Below are positions 55,293 to 61,363 of a stretch of DNA of 64,000 nt, in pieces. The first letter of the stretch is position 1; the number at the start of each line of letters is the position of its first letter. The DNA is from a virus (lineage: Duplodnaviria; Caudoviricetes). A program made the position numbers and the translations under genes. The stretch spans positions 1 through 64,000 of IMG/VR virus record IMGVR_UViG_2898571807_000002, one strand, 5' to 3'. The notes below the pieces were generated by a model that did not search any database, was not told where the DNA came from, and saw only the letters and a program-made list of their open reading frames with translations.

Positions 55293-55976
55293 CTAGCGGC
55301 GTCCCTTCAGGAGCCGCGAATTCACGAACCCCGCGAATTCGCTCGCGGGGTCCTTAGCTCTCGGTTGGTTGGCGCCCGACGCCTGCGTCCGGTCCGGTGC
55401 GGGTTTGCGCCGCTGCGGGGTGTCCGGCTTCGGCTTCGCCAGGTGCGGCTTGCGGTCGAGGAGGTCCTCCAGGTCCGCCTTGATCCGGTCGGTAGCGATC
55501 TCGCCGTCGTCGCCGATGTAGGCGTCCAGGTCGAGAAGCGCTTCCGGGTCGGTTTTGTCGGCGAACCCGTCCGCGGCCATCGCACGGACCTCGGACTTCA
55601 CAGCCCGCTGCCGGATCCGGTGGATCTCCTGCTCGCGCTCGGTCAGCCGCGCCTGCAAACGCTGCGCCTCGGTCTGGTCGGCCTCGGCCGCCTCGCGGGC
55701 ACGCTTGGCCAGCGGCTCCAGTTCCTGGTTCTTTCGCTCCAGCTCACGCAGACGCTTCCGCAGGTTCGCGGCCTCGGAGTTCTTCTTGCGGAGCTCAGCC
55801 TTGGCGGCCTTCTCGTCGAACGCGCCGCCCGCCTGGGGCTTGTCGTCCTCGGTGTCGTCGGCGCCGGTGTCGGTGACCTCGCTGGTCTCCTGCTCCTGCT
55901 CCTCGGTCGCCGTGTCGTCGCCGGTGCTGTCGTCCTGCGCGGTCGTCTGCTCGGTGTCCGCGGTGTCGTCGGGCAT
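55293..55976 (-). CDS. capsid scaffolding protein
   Basis: Own GGAGG RBS and ATG; acidic N-terminus, coiled coil, KPHLA. Confidence 0.8.
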   Translation of the reverse strand: MPDDTADTEQTTAQDDSTGDDTATEEQEQETSEVTDTGADDTEDDKPQAGGAFDEKAAKAELRKKNSEAANLRKRLRELERKNQELEPLAKRAREAAEADQTEAQRLQARLTEREQEIHRIRQRAVKSEVRAMAADGFADKTDPEALLDLDAYIGDDGEIATDRIKADLEDLLDRKPHLAKPKPDTPQRRKPAPDRTQASGANQPRAKDPASEFAGFVNSRLLKGRR

Positions 55977-56444
55977 GATCGGGTAACCCTCCAGGGGTTC
56001 GGATAGGGACAACTCCCGCTCCAGGCGGGAAGAATCTGGGCGGTACAGCGACCACCAGCGGTCGATCGCGCGGCCCGTCCAATCGGGCCGGTTGTCGGCG
56101 GCGGCGCGGGCCCGCGCCTGCTCAGCCGATGCCGCGATCACAACCGTCTCGGTCGCGCGCAGCGACCGGGCGAGGCTCCTGCGCTGCTGCGGATCCGGCG
56201 CGGAACGGATCACCCACGCCGTCCCCGACTCCATCGCCGAGACCTGCCGCTCCAGCGCGGACCGCAGCACATGCGCCCGGTCCGCCACCTCGCGGGCGTG
56301 GTCGTGATGAGCGGTGGACCCGAGCTCTCGGCAGAGCCGGTCGAAGTCGATGACGGTGTCGCCGTCAGATGCCTGTTTGGCGACCCAGGTCGACTTTCCG
56401 GAAGCGGGCGGGCCGCACACCAACACGACCCGACGCACGATCAC
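55293..56444 (-). CDS. AAA_33-like P-loop domain read in frame into the scaffold
   Basis: LVCGPPASGKSTWV, IDFD; no stop codon before the scaffold ATG. Confidence 0.65.
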   Translation of the reverse strand: MIVRRVVLVCGPPASGKSTWVAKQASDGDTVIDFDRLCRELGSTAHHDHAREVADRAHVLRSALERQVSAMESGTAWVIRSAPDPQQRRSLARSLRATETVVIAASAEQARARAAADNRPDWTGRAIDRWWSLYRPDSSRLERELSLSEPLEGYPIMPDDTADTEQTTAQDDSTGDDTATEEQEQETSEVTDTGADDTEDDKPQAGGAFDEKAAKAELRKKNSEAANLRKRLRELERKNQELEPLAKRAREAAEADQTEAQRLQARLTEREQEIHRIRQRAVKSEVRAMAADGFADKTDPEALLDLDAYIGDDGEIATDRIKADLEDLLDRKPHLAKPKPDTPQRRKPAPDRTQASGANQPRAKDPASEFAGFVNSRLLKGRR

Positions 56445-58285
56445 CCCCGGGCGTCAAATGCCTTCCGCCACGCATGCATCTTGTCGCCCACATGGGCCGT
56501 GGCCTGCTCGTACAGCTGCTCCCAGTCCTGCACATGGGATGGCGGGACCCACAGCTTTCCTTCGAACACGGGCGCGACGGTGCAGGAGCAATTAGATACA
56601 ATTACTCCATTAGCTCGGTACCAGCCCGACTCCGTCTGAAAGTTGAAAACTTGGCCACGAAACTCACGGTGAGAGAGATCGACGATGCGGTCGCTCTCTA
56701 CACGTCCGGAAAGACGTTCCAACAGGTCGCGGCCATACTTGGCGTAAACGCCAGCACCGCCTACGTCGCCATAACCCGTCGCGGGGTCAAAGCGCGACAT
56801 GCTACCGCTGATAGGGCCATGCTTGACCAAGCGGTCAGTCTGTACGTCAGCGGCATGACCGGACCCGAGGTCCGGGACGCCATCGGCATATCCACCAGCA
56901 CGCTCCACCGGGAGTTGCGTAAACGTGGGATTCCTGCCCGCAGCCGCAGAACAAACATCCCATCTGCCGACGTGGTCTCCGCATACCTCGCCGGTGAAAG
57001 CCAACTCTCGCTCGCTACCCGGTACGGAACCTCGCGACCAGTGATCCGGCGGATCTTGGTCGAGCAAGGGGTTCAACCGCGCGATCGGAGTGCGGCCAGT
57101 ACGCTCGCGATGGCTGCGCTCACCGACGAACAGCGCGCCGACATGGTCAAAAATGCTCACGCGGCAGTCCGCGGGCGCGACGTCTCCATGGAAGAACGCA
57201 TCTTGCGCTCGCAGAAGCGGGAACGGACCCAATCCCATGCGACTGGCCGTGAACGACAGTTCGGTCGCCACATCAGCTTCCCTGATGTGATCCCGCAGAA
57301 AGCGATCGGCCCCTACAACGTCGACTTTGCTGTCGGTTCCGTCGCCGTGGAAATCCTCGGGGGTACCTGGCACGCTTACAAGGCCGAGCATGCCCATCGC
57401 ACGCCATACATCCTGAACCAGGGCTGGAACATGCTCTTCATCTGGGACAGACAGCAAGCTCCCCTGTGCATTGAGGCTGCTGAGTACGTCGTCGCCTTCG
57501 CGGAGGAGTCCAGCAGGCAGCCAACCCTGCACCGTGAGTACCGGGTGATTAGGGGTGATGCGAAGCTCGTGGCCTGCGGCGGTGCGCAGGACGACCAGTT
57601 CCCCCTCATAATCCCGTCGATAGCCAACTTCCGCGGCAGGGCCATCAACTAGCGTCCCGGCGGGCACACAGTGGTCGTGGAACTTGTACTGGCCTTCGCC
57701 CTCGAAGTTCCGGTTCGCTCGTCGGCCGGCGGTCTGCCGCGACTTGAAGACCGCGCCGCGGAGCGCCATCAAAGCGCAGAAGTAGCAGGGGTCAGAGTCT
57801 GTGATCCTCGCCCACGCAATCGCGCGGCGATCCTTCAGGACGCCCTGATGGATGGTGTCGCGTGCGGTGTCCGCGACCGCTTTCTGCGCGGCGCCGATCA
57901 CCTTGGTCTCGGCGTCTGCGAGGCGCCGCTCGATCGGCGGCGGGCTGTCACGTTGCGGGATCCACAGGTCCTTCGTCGCCCACCGCAGCGACGTGTCGAT
58001 CTTCGTCTCCGGCACATCCGGCACGTCGATGTGGAAGGTCCCCGGCACGCGGGCGAGTTCGCGTTCGCTCTCGAAGTAGTCGGCGGCGAGCGACCCTGCC
58101 ATGTCAGCGTGCTTGGTGATCGCCGCGTCCGCCGCGCGCAGCCACGCAGGCACCGTCGACCCGAATGACCCGAGCCTCACCAGCCGAAACGACGCAGCGA
58201 TCTGCTTAGCGATCTCCTGCAGGATCTTGAGCTGCTGGCGGTGGTATTCAGCCGCCCGCGACTGCAGGCTCACCAGCCACCCCAC
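56441..58285 (-). CDS. MuF-like head morphogenesis protein containing an intein
   Basis: WAR...PCYFC..A.RG...FHDH|C.C motif split by the intein; lies between portal and scaffold. Confidence 0.85.
   Translation of the reverse strand: MGWLVSLQSRAAEYHRQQLKILQEIAKQIAASFRLVRLGSFGSTVPAWLRAADAAITKHADMAGSLAADYFESERELARVPGTFHIDVPDVPETKIDTSLRWATKDLWIPQRDSPPPIERRLADAETKVIGAAQKAVADTARDTIHQGVLKDRRAIAWARITDSDPCYFCALMALRGAVFKSRQTAGRRANRNFEGEGQYKFHDHCVPAGTLVDGPAAEVGYRRDYEGELVVLRTAAGHELRITPNHPVLTVQGWLPAGLLREGDDVLSSLNAQGSLLSVPDEEHVPALVQDVWRAMGMLGLVSVPGTPEDFHGDGTDSKVDVVGADRFLRDHIREADVATELSFTASRMGLGPFPLLRAQDAFFHGDVAPADCRVSIFDHVGALFVGERSHRERTGRTPIARLNPLLDQDPPDHWSRGSVPGSERELAFTGEVCGDHVGRWDVCSAAAGRNPTFTQLPVERAGGYADGVPDLGSGHAADVQTDRLVKHGPISGSMSRFDPATGYGDVGGAGVYAKYGRDLLERLSGRVESDRIVDLSHREFRGQVFNFQTESGWYRANGVIVSNCSCTVAPVFEGKLWVPPSHVQDWEQLYEQATAHVGDKMHAWRKAFDARG
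56591..57670 (-). mobile_element. intein (Hint), 360 aa
   Basis: Block A CVPAGTLV, block B ITPNHPV, block F VFNFQT, C-terminal IVSN followed by Cys+1. Confidence 0.88.
56651..57652 (+). CDS. antisense nested HTH x3 + DUF559/Vsr-like putative homing endonuclease
   Basis: Three HTH repeats, then PQKAIGPYNVDFAV..VAVEILGGTWH...GWNMLFIW; TTG start at 56651 inferred. Confidence 0.75.
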   Translation: MATKLTVREIDDAVALYTSGKTFQQVAAILGVNASTAYVAITRRGVKARHATADRAMLDQAVSLYVSGMTGPEVRDAIGISTSTLHRELRKRGIPARSRRTNIPSADVVSAYLAGESQLSLATRYGTSRPVIRRILVEQGVQPRDRSAASTLAMAALTDEQRADMVKNAHAAVRGRDVSMEERILRSQKRERTQSHATGRERQFGRHISFPDVIPQKAIGPYNVDFAVGSVAVEILGGTWHAYKAEHAHRTPYILNQGWNMLFIWDRQQAPLCIEAAEYVVAFAEESSRQPTLHREYRVIRGDAKLVACGGAQDDQFPLIIPSIANFRGRAIN

Positions 58286-59681
58286 TCGATCCCTGCGGCG
58301 GCGTGGACTGCTCGGGGCCGTTCACGATCGTGTCCAACAGCGTCGCACCGCGGGCGCGCCGCCGATCAGACTGGACCCGCTGCCTCTGCGACTCGGTGAG
58401 ACCCACCATCTCCAACGTCACATCGCTGTCGGCCGGGAGAATCCCCGTCTGCACCAGCTTCACAGCCGCGTCGGTCTGGGATGCGATGGTCGGGGTTGCG
58501 GCGTTCCGCCATACCGTTTCGATCCGCCGCGCACGGTCCGGTACCTCGCCGTTCGCGACGAGCAGCGCCAGGCGTAGGACGTTTCCCCACACTGCGGACA
58601 AGACCGTCTGCTTCCGCTCGGCGCGCTTCACGAGCTGTGCCTCCGTCGAGCGGATCGCGTCCGCCGAGGCCGGGTTGTCGGTCGTGTAACCGAGATAGTG
58701 CGGCGGCAGACCAAGCTGGGTCGCCATGATCCGCGCATACAGGTCAACGATCTTCGTGTACGCGGACGGGTCGTACGCGGCGAACGTCCCGACCGTGGGG
58801 ATCTCACCGTCCTCGTCCCGCTCCAACGCAAGGACCCGGCCGATGTAGGTCTCCCACGCGCTCTTCGGGTTCCCCTCAGCATCCTGAAAGGCGCTCTCGG
58901 ACGTGCCGAGGATGTACCGCTGCGGCGCCCCGTAGAACTCCCGCGCGACCTCCATCCCCAGCAACGTGCGGCACGCCGCGTCCGTGATCGACATGACCGC
59001 CGGGGTGATCTCCGACCGGCCCGACCGGTCCGCGACCCGCTGCCGGTTCGCAATCCGCACCACCGTGACGACACCCAGGCCGTGCAAGTCGCGGTCGACG
59101 ACAATCCAGCCGCCGTCCGTGGACTCCTCCAGGTGGACTGTCTGCTCCGGCAGATACAGCACCGCCGCCTGCCGGTCGGCGTCCTTGTACAGCCGCAGCG
59201 CCGACGTCACCGCCCGTTTCCGCGCGTCATAGAACAGGGTCATGTCCAGCGGCGACTCGACCGTGATCACCGGCGGGTCGCCGTCCTCGTCCGCCGACCC
59301 CACCGCCACATACGACCGGCGGTAAATGAACGAGTCCAGGTGCGCGAGCTGCGACTCGGCGATCAGCTCGTTCGGCTCCCACAGGTCCTCAAGCTCGCCC
59401 GACTCCTCCGGATCGTCGGCGTACCGCCACGCCTCGATGTCGAGGCGCTGCTCCAGCGCGTCCACACCGATCTGCGGCCACCCGATCACCGTGTGAAGGC
59501 CCTTGAGCTGCGGGGGGATCGAAATCCCCAGGTCCCGGATGAGCTGCTCGCCGTTGTAGTAGCAGTCCCGCAGCTCCATCTGCCACCGGCACGCCATCAG
59601 GTCCGTGCGGAGCGCGTCGAGCAGGTTCGACTCGTCGTCCGACAGGTTCAGCAGCGGCAGGTCCGGGATCGTGACGGTCAC
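58248..59681 (-). CDS. portal protein (SPP1 gp6-like)
   Basis: YYNGEQ, GRSEI, PQRY, NPASADAI. Confidence 0.92.
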   Translation of the reverse strand: MTVTIPDLPLLNLSDDESNLLDALRTDLMACRWQMELRDCYYNGEQLIRDLGISIPPQLKGLHTVIGWPQIGVDALEQRLDIEAWRYADDPEESGELEDLWEPNELIAESQLAHLDSFIYRRSYVAVGSADEDGDPPVITVESPLDMTLFYDARKRAVTSALRLYKDADRQAAVLYLPEQTVHLEESTDGGWIVVDRDLHGLGVVTVVRIANRQRVADRSGRSEITPAVMSITDAACRTLLGMEVAREFYGAPQRYILGTSESAFQDAEGNPKSAWETYIGRVLALERDEDGEIPTVGTFAAYDPSAYTKIVDLYARIMATQLGLPPHYLGYTTDNPASADAIRSTEAQLVKRAERKQTVLSAVWGNVLRLALLVANGEVPDRARRIETVWRNAATPTIASQTDAAVKLVQTGILPADSDVTLEMVGLTESQRQRVQSDRRRARGATLLDTIVNGPEQSTPPQGSSGVAGEPAVAGG

Positions 59682-61363
59682 GCCAGCACCACCGCCCTGC
59701 CCTTGCCGCGCCGGCCGATGCCCTTGCTCACCGCGTCGATACGCGCCTGCCACGCGAGTGTCGCCGCGACCGCAGCGTCGATCTTCCGCCGCGAATCCGG
59801 GTGCTCCTTGGCGATCTGCAAACCGGCGCGGGACGGGCGCCGGCGCGCATTCAGCACATGCCGCGTCAACGTGAACGACCCGTCATGGGTGAGCTCACCG
59901 TTGATCACCGCCGCGTGGAACTGCTCCAACGCCCGCACGACCGCCTGCGGACGGTTCATCCACCACTCGATCGGGTGCGCCTGCGAAGACCGGACCCGCA
60001 TCCGACGCCCGTAGGCGTACTCCCACTCCGCCACGAACGACCGCCAGTCCGCGGCAGGATCCGCGTAGAACCCGACGACCTTGTACCTCTGGAACGCCGA
60101 CCGGACCGCCGCCTCGACCTCCGCGGTCGGCACCCACCAGTCCTTGCCCGCCGGACCGTTCGGCTGCTCCCACACCGCGACCTCGAACAGAAACCCGTCC
60201 GACACCCGGCACCCGATCAGCGCGGTCGCATCAGCCACGCCCCGGTTGCGGTGCTTGGACCCGTCGAACCCCAGCGTGATCCGATCCCCCGGCGCCACCG
60301 TCTTCGACGGGTCCGCGCAACCCGCCCACTCGTGCGGCGCCAGCCAAGCATCCGTCGCGCCGGTCTGCGCGTTCAGGAAATAGCGCCGCGAATCCACCGG
60401 GTTCTTGCGGGTGTCGTAGAACTCGTCGACGATCCCGTCGAAGTCGTTCCACTCGATCGCCTCACCGAACGCCTCAAGAATCGCCGCCCGCAACTGATCC
60501 TCAGCCGACAAGTCCTCGCACTCACCCCACCGGTGGTCATACAGCAGCCGGGCCCGCCGCGACCGTCCCTCCTGAATGTGCTCGGCCAGTTGGAACGTCG
60601 CCTCCGCGGTCGACTCCTCACCGGCGGCGAACATCGTGGTGGTCTCCAAGAACCACGTGCCCGCGCCCTTCTTCCGCTTCCGCAGGTTCCGGGTGACCGT
60701 GTCGTACATCCGCCGCAACTCCGGCTGGTTGTACAGGTGCGTCTCGTCGAACACCACGAACGTCTCCAGGCCGCCGTCCTTCGACGCCGACGACGCCGTC
60801 GACGGACGAATCTCCCCGCCCCCCGGCAGATAGATCCGCGTCAAGCCCGCGTCCATGCCCGGGATGTGCGACAGCAGCGCGTCTCCGTCGGTGAGGTTGA
60901 AGAACACCGTGTCGTAGACGTTGCCGGTCTGGCCCTCCTCAGTGGCCATGCACCGGATGAACGGGGACGTGACATGGCGACCCATCGGCTCACCCGGCTC
61001 GTACACATACCGGAACCCCAACCCCCACGGGTCCTCGTACACCTCACCGCCGGACGCCCAGCCCGCGAACCGGCACGGCCCCAACGCCTCGAACACAGCG
61101 AGCCGACCACCGAGCCCCGACTTGTCGCAGCCCTTCGGCCGCGAGAAAAACGCCGAGTCATACAACCGCTGCGTGTTCTCCGGCTCGTCGCCAATCGCGT
61201 AGCAGTCGACGATGAAGCCCGTGAGCTCATCACCGTGGCTGACCGGCTGGCCCTGCACGTCGCCCCGGCCGTGGACGACGAAGTACTCCATCCACACCGT
61301 CGCCAGCCACCCCAACGACCGGTGACGGTCATGCCCGGGGGCCCGGACCAGCGTGCGCGGCAT
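59678..61363 (-). CDS. terminase large subunit
   Basis: RPKGCDKS, VVFDETH, LGFDGS, KIDAAVA. Confidence 0.95.
   Translation of the reverse strand: MPRTLVRAPGHDRHRSLGWLATVWMEYFVVHGRGDVQGQPVSHGDELTGFIVDCYAIGDEPENTQRLYDSAFFSRPKGCDKSGLGGRLAVFEALGPCRFAGWASGGEVYEDPWGLGFRYVYEPGEPMGRHVTSPFIRCMATEEGQTGNVYDTVFFNLTDGDALLSHIPGMDAGLTRIYLPGGGEIRPSTASSASKDGGLETFVVFDETHLYNQPELRRMYDTVTRNLRKRKKGAGTWFLETTTMFAAGEESTAEATFQLAEHIQEGRSRRARLLYDHRWGECEDLSAEDQLRAAILEAFGEAIEWNDFDGIVDEFYDTRKNPVDSRRYFLNAQTGATDAWLAPHEWAGCADPSKTVAPGDRITLGFDGSKHRNRGVADATALIGCRVSDGFLFEVAVWEQPNGPAGKDWWVPTAEVEAAVRSAFQRYKVVGFYADPAADWRSFVAEWEYAYGRRMRVRSSQAHPIEWWMNRPQAVVRALEQFHAAVINGELTHDGSFTLTRHVLNARRRPSRAGLQIAKEHPDSRRKIDAAVAATLAWQARIDAVSKGIGRRGKGRAVVLA

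What the first reader, a model, noticed from the sequence alone, without database searches (positions are those of the whole stretch)
56591..57670. Intein with its putative homing endonuclease encoded on the opposite strand
Seen: a 360-aa intein (CVPAGTLV...TPNH...IVSN/C) splits the HDH|CxC motif of the MuF-like gene. Its central region shows no LAGLIDADG or HNH motif and reads like antisense sequence. The opposite strand is open over 56651-57652, covering nearly the whole intein including splicing blocks and stopping 18 nt from the intein's start. It encodes three HTH repeats and a DUF559/Vsr-like nuclease domain (YNVDF...VEILGGTWH...GWNMLFIW). Known: intein endonucleases are normally in frame; Vsr-like endonuclease genes have been described free-standing between split-intein halves. 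I do not know of a fully nested antisense version in a contiguous intein. Inference: a dual-coding selfish element that decouples nuclease expression from the late operon. The usual Asp after the Glu is Leu here, so activity is uncertain.
Basis: partly seen in the sequence, partly recalled or inferred. Interest (0 to 1): 0.88.

Follow-up and report, generated by a model that had tools for sequence, protein, structure and literature searches.

The report
Intein with antisense-encoded homing endonuclease
A self-splicing intein in a prophage head-assembly (MuF) gene carries a real Vsr-like homing endonuclease gene on the opposite strand; a 2025 preprint already described this layout in actinophages, and here it also turns up in phages of Salmonella, E. 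coli, Vibrio and others.

Summary
A 360-codon class-1 intein (56591-57670, minus strand) splits the FHDH|CSC site of a VG15/MuF minor-capsid gene. A 333-codon gene (TTG 56651 to stop 57652, plus strand) lies inside it on the other strand.

Substitutions against a 91%-identical relative fall at antisense third positions in the centre (62:8:14). At the splicing ends they fall at sense third positions.

The same nested gene is open in MuF inteins of Gordonia, Salmonella, E. coli, Klebsiella, Vibrio, Aggregatibacter and Pseudomonas phages, some with only 42% GC. A free-standing copy lies beside an intein-less MuF gene in an Acinetobacter phage. Intein-less alleles reading FHDHCSC exist.

The kind is not new. 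bioRxiv 10.1101/2025.01.02.630785 reports anti-sense VSR-like endonucleases in actinophage inteins. Possibly new here are the cross-phylum spread, the codon register, the split in which frame is selected, and promoter-like sites inside the splicing blocks. No expression, splicing or cleavage was shown.

The parts
56441..58285 (-). VG15/MuF-like minor capsid (head morphogenesis) precursor gene, 614 codons plus stop, including the intein
   Evidence: ORF. Pfam VG15 E 3e-42 and PHROG 193/15127 'head' families. It lies between the portal gene (58248-59753) and the scaffold and capsid genes.
57671..58285 (-). N-extein (residues 1-205), ending ...YKFHDH
   Evidence: Intein-less alleles P0244 and P0245 read ...YKFHDHCSCTV... 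without interruption.
56591..57670 (-). Class-1 intein, 360 codons: Cys1, block B TPNH, block F/G ...VFNFQTESGWYRANGVIVSN, followed by +1 Cys
57305..57670 (-). N-terminal HINT lobe (intein residues 1-122). Residues 1-66 have pLDDT above 90 and the sense frame is under selection there.
   Evidence: for pLDDT. All conserved sense columns lie within residues 1-125 and 293-360. In codons 1-60 substitutions are mostly at sense position 3.
56795..57304 (-). Central in-frame stretch of the intein (residues 123-292). It is a stop-free passenger translation of the antisense gene and is predicted disordered.
   Evidence: pLDDT below 50 over residues 123-134 and 136-290. No conserved column lies between residues 126 and 292 in 63 homologues. 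There are 64 sense against 22 antisense amino-acid differences versus L010 in codons 61-300.
56591..56794 (-). C-terminal HINT lobe (intein residues 293-360, blocks F and G)
   Evidence: pLDDT 74-97. HINT structural matches span residues 1-360.
56444..56590 (-). C-extein (49 residues), starting CSCTVAPVFEG...
56651..57652 (+). Antisense homing-endonuclease gene, 333 codons plus stop, TTG start. Each of its codons is the reverse complement of an intein codon.
   Evidence: Relative P0004 is 91% identical, and its upstream frame is closed 7 codons before the same start. Mean pLDDT 91.8.
56651..57070 (+). Three helix-turn-helix DNA-binding modules (about residues 7-43, 55-91, 105-138)
57233..57583 (+). 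Vsr-like nuclease domain (residues 195-311). Motifs: YNVDF (D225), VAVEILGGTWH (E234, H241), HAHRT (R250), GWNMLFIWD.
56597..56602 (+). TACAAT, a -10-like hexamer made by the rare Ile-Val codons (ATT GTA) of intein block G, 48 nt before the antisense start. Candidate promoter of the nuclease gene.
   Evidence: Invariant in four diverged Streptomyces-type copies although it includes sense third positions. TACAAT or TATAAT lies at the same place in Gordonia phage Malisha and in Salmonella phages. The consensus scan found nothing in the window itself.

Best explanation
This is a composite selfish element in a prophage head-assembly gene.

On the minus strand, a class-1 intein sits in the conserved CxxC...H...CxC site of the MuF/VG15 minor capsid protein, between FHDH and CSC. 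It should splice out to give a mature protein of about 254 aa.

On the plus strand, inside the intein, a separate gene encodes a 333-aa homing endonuclease with three HTH DNA-binding modules and a Vsr-like nuclease domain. It probably has its own promoter and start site, formed by the reverse complement of intein blocks G and F.

The inferred cycle is as follows. The nuclease cuts intein-less MuF alleles of related phages or prophages at or near the FHDH|CSC codons. Recombinational repair then copies the intein and the nuclease gene into the cut allele.

The two frames are in exact codon register. Sense stop codons therefore correspond only to antisense TTA, CTA (Leu) and TCA (Ser). By avoiding those three codons, the nuclease gene leaves the intein frame open, and its reverse translation becomes a disordered linker of about 170 residues that the HINT fold tolerates.

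Selection is divided along the element: the antisense frame is selected in the centre and the sense frame at the splicing ends.

Shown here: both open frames, both folds, homology, the pattern of selection, and the existence of empty alleles. Inferred: transcription, splicing, cleavage and homing.
For: (1) Anatomy and register.

(4) Selection, window against L010, 360 ungapped codons. In the centre, substitutions at sense positions 1:2:3 are 62:8:14 (binomial P 4e-14), with 64 sense and 22 antisense amino-acid changes. At the ends the counts are 7:1:14, with 5 sense and 16 antisense changes. Fisher P is 5e-5. The same switch appears in Streptomyces prophages L011/L012, in Salmonella phages and in Gordonia phages; a Klebsiella phage pair shows the same bias overall from few differences.

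(5) Both frames are open in every MuF intein examined, including 42% GC phages Aaphi23 (340 antisense codons) and a Vibrio phage (319 codons). No TTA, CTA or TCA occurs in any nested copy, where up to 15 are expected. The free-standing Acinetobacter phage copy has 12.

(6) Intein-less alleles at 76-82% N-extein identity read ...YKFHDHCSCTV....

(7) Promoter-like sites lie just upstream of the antisense start. They score 11/12, 11/12 and 10/12 sigma-70 matches, each ending 29 nt before the ATG, in Vibrio, E. coli and Aggregatibacter phages. A conserved TACAAT or TATAAT occurs in block G codons elsewhere.
Against: There are no transcript, protein, splicing or cleavage data.

In the window itself the start is TTG with no GGAGG before it, whereas relatives have GGAGG-N-ATG. 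The consensus promoter scan found nothing in the window, so expression here may be weak.

The Asp of the DUF559 'ExDG' motif is absent across the family, and the window's penultimate intein residue is Ser rather than His. Full activity of either part is therefore unproven.

Selection tests on overlapping frames are confounded by each other, and they rest on a few pairs.
Confidence: 0.85

Rival explanations
1. The plus-strand frame is a chance 'shadow' ORF of GC-rich coding DNA, and its HTH and nuclease resemblances are spurious.
For: In this register only three codons block the opposite frame. At 67% GC only about 2.3 of them are expected across the gene, P(0) about 0.1. Several other long antisense ORFs occur in the same window.
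Against: The frame is open over 272-351 codons in 42-53% GC phages. Mean pLDDT is 91.8 with Vsr-family fold matches. A free-standing homologue exists with no intein opposite it. Substitutions show the antisense third-position signature.
Confidence: 0.02
2. The nested gene is real but no longer serves homing. It would be a domesticated or decaying HTH protein, for example a regulator or nickase, or an antisense-RNA source that tunes MuF expression, and the intein would now be inherited only vertically.
For: The window has a TTG start with a weak ribosome-binding site. The Asp after Glu is missing. His241 is not conserved in the proteobacterial phage copies. The preprint reports that several VSR-like intein groups look vertically inherited.
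Against: Purifying selection covers the whole protein, including the nuclease core. D225 and E234 are invariant from Actinobacteria to Gammaproteobacteria. Intein-less alleles are closer in extein sequence (82%) than intein-bearing relatives are, which fits mobility or recent loss. A free-standing copy sits next to an empty target gene.
Confidence: 0.1
3. The centre of the intein encodes an in-frame functional domain on the minus strand, and the plus-strand frame is secondary.
For: The sense motif DFHGD...VDVV (intein residues about 106-120) is conserved in all homologues.
Against: That motif is the reverse-complement image of the nuclease strand VAVE... and lies in the HINT N-lobe region. Sense residues 126-292 have no conserved column and pLDDT below 50. 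No non-HINT structural match was found. Three times more sense than antisense amino-acid changes occur there.
Confidence: 0.03

Closest known systems
Inteins with 'anti-sense VSR-like HEN' in actinobacteriophages (Gosselin, Arsenault and Gogarten, bioRxiv 10.1101/2025.01.02.630785, version of Oct 2025)
   Different: This copy is in a Streptomyces-type provirus rather than an isolated actinophage. The preprint text I read does not mention codon register, promoters, selection by frame, or non-actinobacterial phages. [quoted passage not shown] Here the ORF runs from block F to block A and overlaps both HINT lobes.
EDxHD / Vsr-like homing endonucleases: I-Bth0305I (Taylor et al. 2011, PMC3239194) and the free-standing ORFs in 'fractured genes' with split inteins (Dassa et al. 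2009, PMC2677866)
   Different: Those enzymes are encoded in a group I intron or as free-standing genes between split-intein halves, not opposite an unbroken intein frame. Dassa et al. state that Vsr-like endonucleases were not known inside inteins. Here the intein stays contiguous and the acidic residue next to the Glu is replaced by Leu.
Anti-sense LAGLIDADG endonucleases in inteins (Synechocystis DnaX, Chloroflexus SpoVR-like; Gorbalenya 1998 and Gogarten 2002, as cited)
   Same: In both, the endonuclease is encoded on the strand opposite a functional intein.
   Different: The nuclease family differs (LAGLIDADG against Vsr-like). I did not examine those sequences.
Out-of-frame 'hidden' HNH endonuclease in the ShiLan insertion of a phage methylase (Arsenault et al. 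2025, PMC11855218)
   Same: A homing endonuclease is hidden in an alternative frame of an insertion that stays stop-free in the host frame.
   Different: That element is on the same strand in another frame, has no splicing domain, and uses an HNH nuclease.
Intein in Mu F of the Methylococcus capsulatus Mu-like prophage (PMC517821)
   Same: It is an intein in a MuF-type head-assembly protein, described as lacking a recognisable endonuclease.
   Different: Its opposite strand was not examined, either in that paper or here.

Membership tests
Intein (class 1, HINT domain) | N-terminal Cys/Ser nucleophile, and a Cys/Ser/Thr at +1 after a C-terminal Asn | tested here: met
   Cys1 (CVPAGT...) and ...IVSN followed by CSC. 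C1 and N360 are invariant in 63 homologues.
Intein (class 1, HINT domain) | Block B TxxH motif | tested here: met
   TPNH. T39 and H42 are invariant.
Intein (class 1, HINT domain) | HINT fold formed by the N- and C-terminal parts | tested here: met
Intein (class 1, HINT domain) | In-frame insertion into a host protein whose uninterrupted alleles exist | tested here: met
   P0244, P0245 and P0251 (250-257 aa) read ...KFHDHCSC.... 614 - 360 = 254 aa.
Intein (class 1, HINT domain) | Protein splicing activity | not testable with these tools
   The penultimate residue is Ser rather than the common His. Relatives have Ser, His or Lys there.
Vsr-like nuclease superfamily (Vsr / DUF559 / EDxHD) | Vsr-type alpha/beta nuclease fold | tested here: met
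Vsr-like nuclease superfamily (Vsr / DUF559 / EDxHD) | Metal-binding Asp on the first core strand (Vsr Asp51; I-Bth0305I Asp196) | tested here: met
   D225 in YNVDF is invariant in 73 actinobacterial-type sequences and in all 9 cross-phylum sequences. The equivalence to Asp51 comes from the HMMER alignment to 3hrl and my own reading of the Vsr sequence.
EDxHD homing endonucleases / DUF559 (strict motif) | Acidic pair E-x-D (DUF559 'VE.DGG.H') and the full EDxHD residue set | tested here: not met
   Glu234 is present, but the Asp position is Leu (VAVEILGGTWH). Leu or another hydrophobic residue is the family consensus. His241 is conserved only in the actinobacterial group. I therefore file it as a distinct Vsr-like subfamily, not as a strict EDxHD or DUF559 member. 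Pfam DUF559 scores 14.5 bits, below its 20.6 cut-off.
Homing endonuclease (functional class) | Site-specific cleavage of the element-free allele, leading to copying of the element | not testable with these tools
   Indirect evidence only: empty alleles exist, a free-standing homologue abuts an empty MuF gene, and the ORF is under purifying selection.
Intein with anti-sense VSR-like HEN (Gosselin et al. 2025 preprint) | A contiguous intein with a Vsr-like endonuclease ORF on the opposite strand within the intein | tested here: met
   Homologous antisense ORFs occur in actinophage MuF genes.

The most novel reading that the evidence does not exclude
This MuF intein and its antisense nuclease may form one ancient, cross-phylum phage element, from Actinobacteria to Gammaproteobacteria, always in the same codon register. 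In that reading the splicing blocks have a second job on the other strand. Block G Ile-Val or Ile-Ile codons would spell the -10 box. Block F 'NL' codons would spell the Shine-Dalgarno sequence. The block F His codon CAT would be the nuclease's ATG. The HINT A/B blocks would be co-encoded with a folded C-terminal hairpin of the nuclease. That would make this a rare natural case of two structured protein domains plus expression signals written on opposite strands of the same roughly 1 kb.
Probability: 0.5. Interest if true: 0.62.

Novelty: new member of a known kind. Interest (0 to 1): 0.45.

Why it matters
The element shows how a free-standing homing endonuclease gene can lodge in an intein without breaking it. 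Written in the codon-aligned antisense frame, the nuclease gene only has to avoid three codons to keep the host frame open. The cost is a disordered loop inside the intein.

This offers a concrete intermediate between mini-inteins, split 'fractured' genes and canonical nuclease-bearing inteins.

It also has a practical side. Gene callers pick one strand or the other: NCBI's annotation of a Streptomyces prophage lists the nuclease and leaves the MuF-intein gene uncalled, while most phage records list only the MuF gene. The nuclease has therefore been overlooked in well-studied phages such as the Jersey-like Salmonella phages and Aaphi23. Those phages would make tractable systems for testing antisense-encoded homing.

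Tried and rejected
- Scans of IMG/VR viral contigs gave nothing usable.
- No RNA holder was listed among public runs. Only two soil-metagenome DNA runs hold a small share of the words, so expression could not be examined and read laying was not used.
- The sigma-70 consensus scan found no promoter or terminator in window 56200-58000.
- Foldseek with the whole multi-domain antisense model gave only weak rows (best E 8.8e-3; 3r3p E 0.08). The exhaustive VIA-align search was needed.
- Blastn of the intein DNA against phages found only short patches, 50-330 nt, centred on the nuclease core.
- Literature searches for intein plus opposite strand, antisense, MuF, MupF or Jerseyvirus returned nothing on this arrangement. 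The preprint surfaced only with 'actinobacteriophage inteins minor capsid'.
- I asked whether the free-standing Acinetobacter copy is a relic of a nested one. Its opposite strand has 12 stops in register and no HINT blocks, so the direction of evolution, free-standing to nested or the reverse, stays open.
- No complex-prediction job was sent, because no binding claim is made.

Full report
WHAT IS THERE

The window comes from an IMG/VR provirus record of 101 kb. Its closest protein relatives are in Streptomyces and Nonomuraea.

On the minus strand, 56441-58285 encodes a 614-aa VG15/MuF-like minor capsid protein (Pfam VG15, E 3e-42). It lies between the portal gene and the scaffold and capsid genes. 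After residue 205 (...YKFHDH) the Pfam match breaks. A 360-residue insert follows, and the host sequence then resumes with CSCTVAPVF...

The insert has the intein hallmarks: Cys1, TPNH (block B)...GWYRANGVIVSN and a +1 Cys. Natural intein-less alleles of 250-257 aa read ...YKFHDHCSCTV... straight through.

THE OPPOSITE STRAND

The plus strand is stop-free from 56369 to 57652. The start shared with all homologues is TTG at 56651. In the 91%-identical relative L010 the frame is closed seven codons upstream of that same start. The stop at 57650-57652 is 18 nt from the first intein codon.

The two frames are in exact codon register: every intein codon is the reverse complement of a nuclease codon. 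For example, sense DFHGD mirrors antisense VAVEI, and sense TPNHPVLT mirrors antisense EYRVIRGD.

IS THE ANTISENSE FRAME A REAL GENE?

Four independent lines say it is.

(ii) Homology. The antisense protein has 199 relatives in the large protein database, many labelled 'very-short-patch-repair endonuclease'. tblastn finds it in 117 phage records.

In every MuF locus examined, the match lies antisense to an intein-bearing head-morphogenesis gene, and both frames are open. These loci are Gordonia phages Malisha, Vivi2 and Fosterous; Salmonella Jersey-like phages; E. coli Kagunavirus KMB36; Klebsiella phages; a Vibrio phage; Aaphi23 and S1249; and a Pseudomonas phage. The open antisense frames include 340 and 319 codons at 42% GC.

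In Acinetobacter phage P1068 the homologue is free-standing. It is convergent with an intein-less MuF gene ending ...PMCKCRAKL... and abuts its 3' end. The strand opposite it carries 12 stops.

(iii) Selection. Against L010 (360 ungapped codons), the 84 substitutions in sense codons 61-300 fall 62:8:14 on sense positions 1:2:3. Those are antisense positions 3:2:1 (P 4e-14). They cause 64 sense but only 22 antisense amino-acid changes.

In codons 1-60 and 301-360 the pattern flips to 7:1:14, with 5 sense and 16 antisense changes (Fisher P 5e-5). The same switch of the selected frame is seen in Streptomyces prophages L011/L012, Salmonella phages and Gordonia phages. A Klebsiella phage pair has too few differences to resolve the switch but shows the same antisense third-position bias overall.

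(iv) Codon avoidance. In this register the sense stops correspond to antisense TTA, CTA and TCA. All nested copies have none of these, where up to 15 are expected from neighbouring genes. The free-standing copy has 12.

For the GC-rich window alone this last test is weak: 2.3 are expected, P about 0.1. The open frame in the window would therefore not by itself have been evidence.

HOW IT PROBABLY WORKS

The nuclease is most likely made from its own transcript. In three proteobacterial phages the best sigma-70-like site in the scanned 1.4 kb lies on the nuclease strand and ends 29 nt before its ATG:
- TTGACA-18-CATAAT in the Vibrio phage;
- TTGACT-16-TATAAT in E. coli phage KMB36;
- CTTACA-16-TATAAT with an upstream TG in Aaphi23.

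In the Streptomyces-type copies and in Malisha, a TACAAT occurs at the end of the intein, and Salmonella phages have TGcTATAAT there. These hexamers are built from rare A/T-ending Ile-Val or Ile-Ile codons of block G. The hexamer is invariant across diverged copies.

In most copies the ATG is the reverse complement of the block F His codon, and GGAGG is the reverse complement of the block F Asn-Leu codons. The window and L010 have TTG and no GGAGG, which suggests weaker translation.

The rest of the cycle is inferred from the behaviour of homing endonucleases, including the Vsr-like enzyme I-Bth0305I (PMC3239194). The steps are cleavage of empty FHDH|CSC alleles, repair from the intein-bearing copy, and protein splicing that restores MuF. 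None of these was shown here.

Empty alleles at 76-82% N-extein identity exist. The extein sequences of the intein-bearing relatives L011 and L012 look more diverged by eye; I did not compute their identity. This fits gain by transfer or recent loss.

CATALYTIC SITE

D225 (YNVDF) and E234 (VAVE) are invariant from Actinobacteria to Gammaproteobacteria. G237, G238, H241 and R250 are invariant within the actinobacterial group.

The Asp of the DUF559 'VE.DGG.H' motif is Leu in the whole group. It also means the protein does not meet the strict EDxHD/DUF559 motif. I file it as a Vsr-like subfamily.

WHAT IS KNOWN

Dassa et al. 2009 found Vsr-like endonuclease genes free-standing between split-intein halves. 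They stated that such nucleases were not known inside inteins.

The arrangement is therefore already described, and this locus is a new member in a provirus.

The preprint text I read does not mention several things seen here:
- the spread to phages of Proteobacteria;
- the fixed codon register and the three-codon rule;
- the division of selection between the frames;
- the promoter, SD and start signals inside blocks G and F;
- the fact that the ORF spans block F to block A, whereas the preprint says such ORFs typically lie outside the splicing domain.

These are leads, not established facts.

VERDICT

The finding is real and neat but not categorically new.

Noticed in passing
L005:1474-2367 (+) and L005:2361-3137 (-), Acinetobacter phage P1068 (OQ689089.1): A free-standing homologue of the nuclease (annotated hypothetical, WHB31326.1) is convergent with an intein-less MuF gene and touches its 3' end, about 45 nt from that gene's CKC site. 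It uses 12 TTA/CTA/TCA codons, and its opposite strand has 12 stops and no HINT relic.
   Followed up: partly
L011:2291-4189 (Streptomyces phaeochromogenes GCA_026343615.1); also L010 and L012: Gene callers listed the antisense nuclease ORF (OOK29_09890, 'hypothetical protein') and left the 633-codon MuF-intein frame on the other strand uncalled. Most phage records do the reverse. Salmonella phage PK2 lists both.
   Followed up: partly
L018 and L019 (Gordonia phages Vivi2 gp14, Fosterous gp12); hits H44 and H47 (Affeca, Angelicage): These MuF-like genes are very long, more than 1,100 codons open in the fetched stretch, and carry the antisense Vsr-like ORF. The preprint names Angelicage and Affeca in a cluster with endonuclease VII-like HENs, so these genes may hold more than one intein, or the clusters may refer to another gene.
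   Followed up: no
window 56588-56650: The last intein codons (GGA GTA ATT GTA TCT AAT) are rare A/T-ending codons in about 69% GC DNA. They are identical in four diverged copies, which points to conservation at the nucleotide level beyond the protein. This is the candidate -10 region for the antisense gene.
   Followed up: partly
window 55293-56444 (-): The gene after MuF (383 aa) joins an N-terminal P-loop kinase-like part (AAA_33 in the L010 homologue) to an acidic coiled-coil, scaffold-like C-terminal part. This is an unusual fusion at the scaffold position.
   Followed up: no
MuF exteins, window 57671-58285 and 56444-56590: The intein sits inside a probable metal-binding motif of MuF: CxxC at residues 175-178, then FHDH, then CSC. 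These residues are nearly invariant in 63 homologues. The +1 Cys of the intein is the first Cys of the CxC pair.
   Followed up: no
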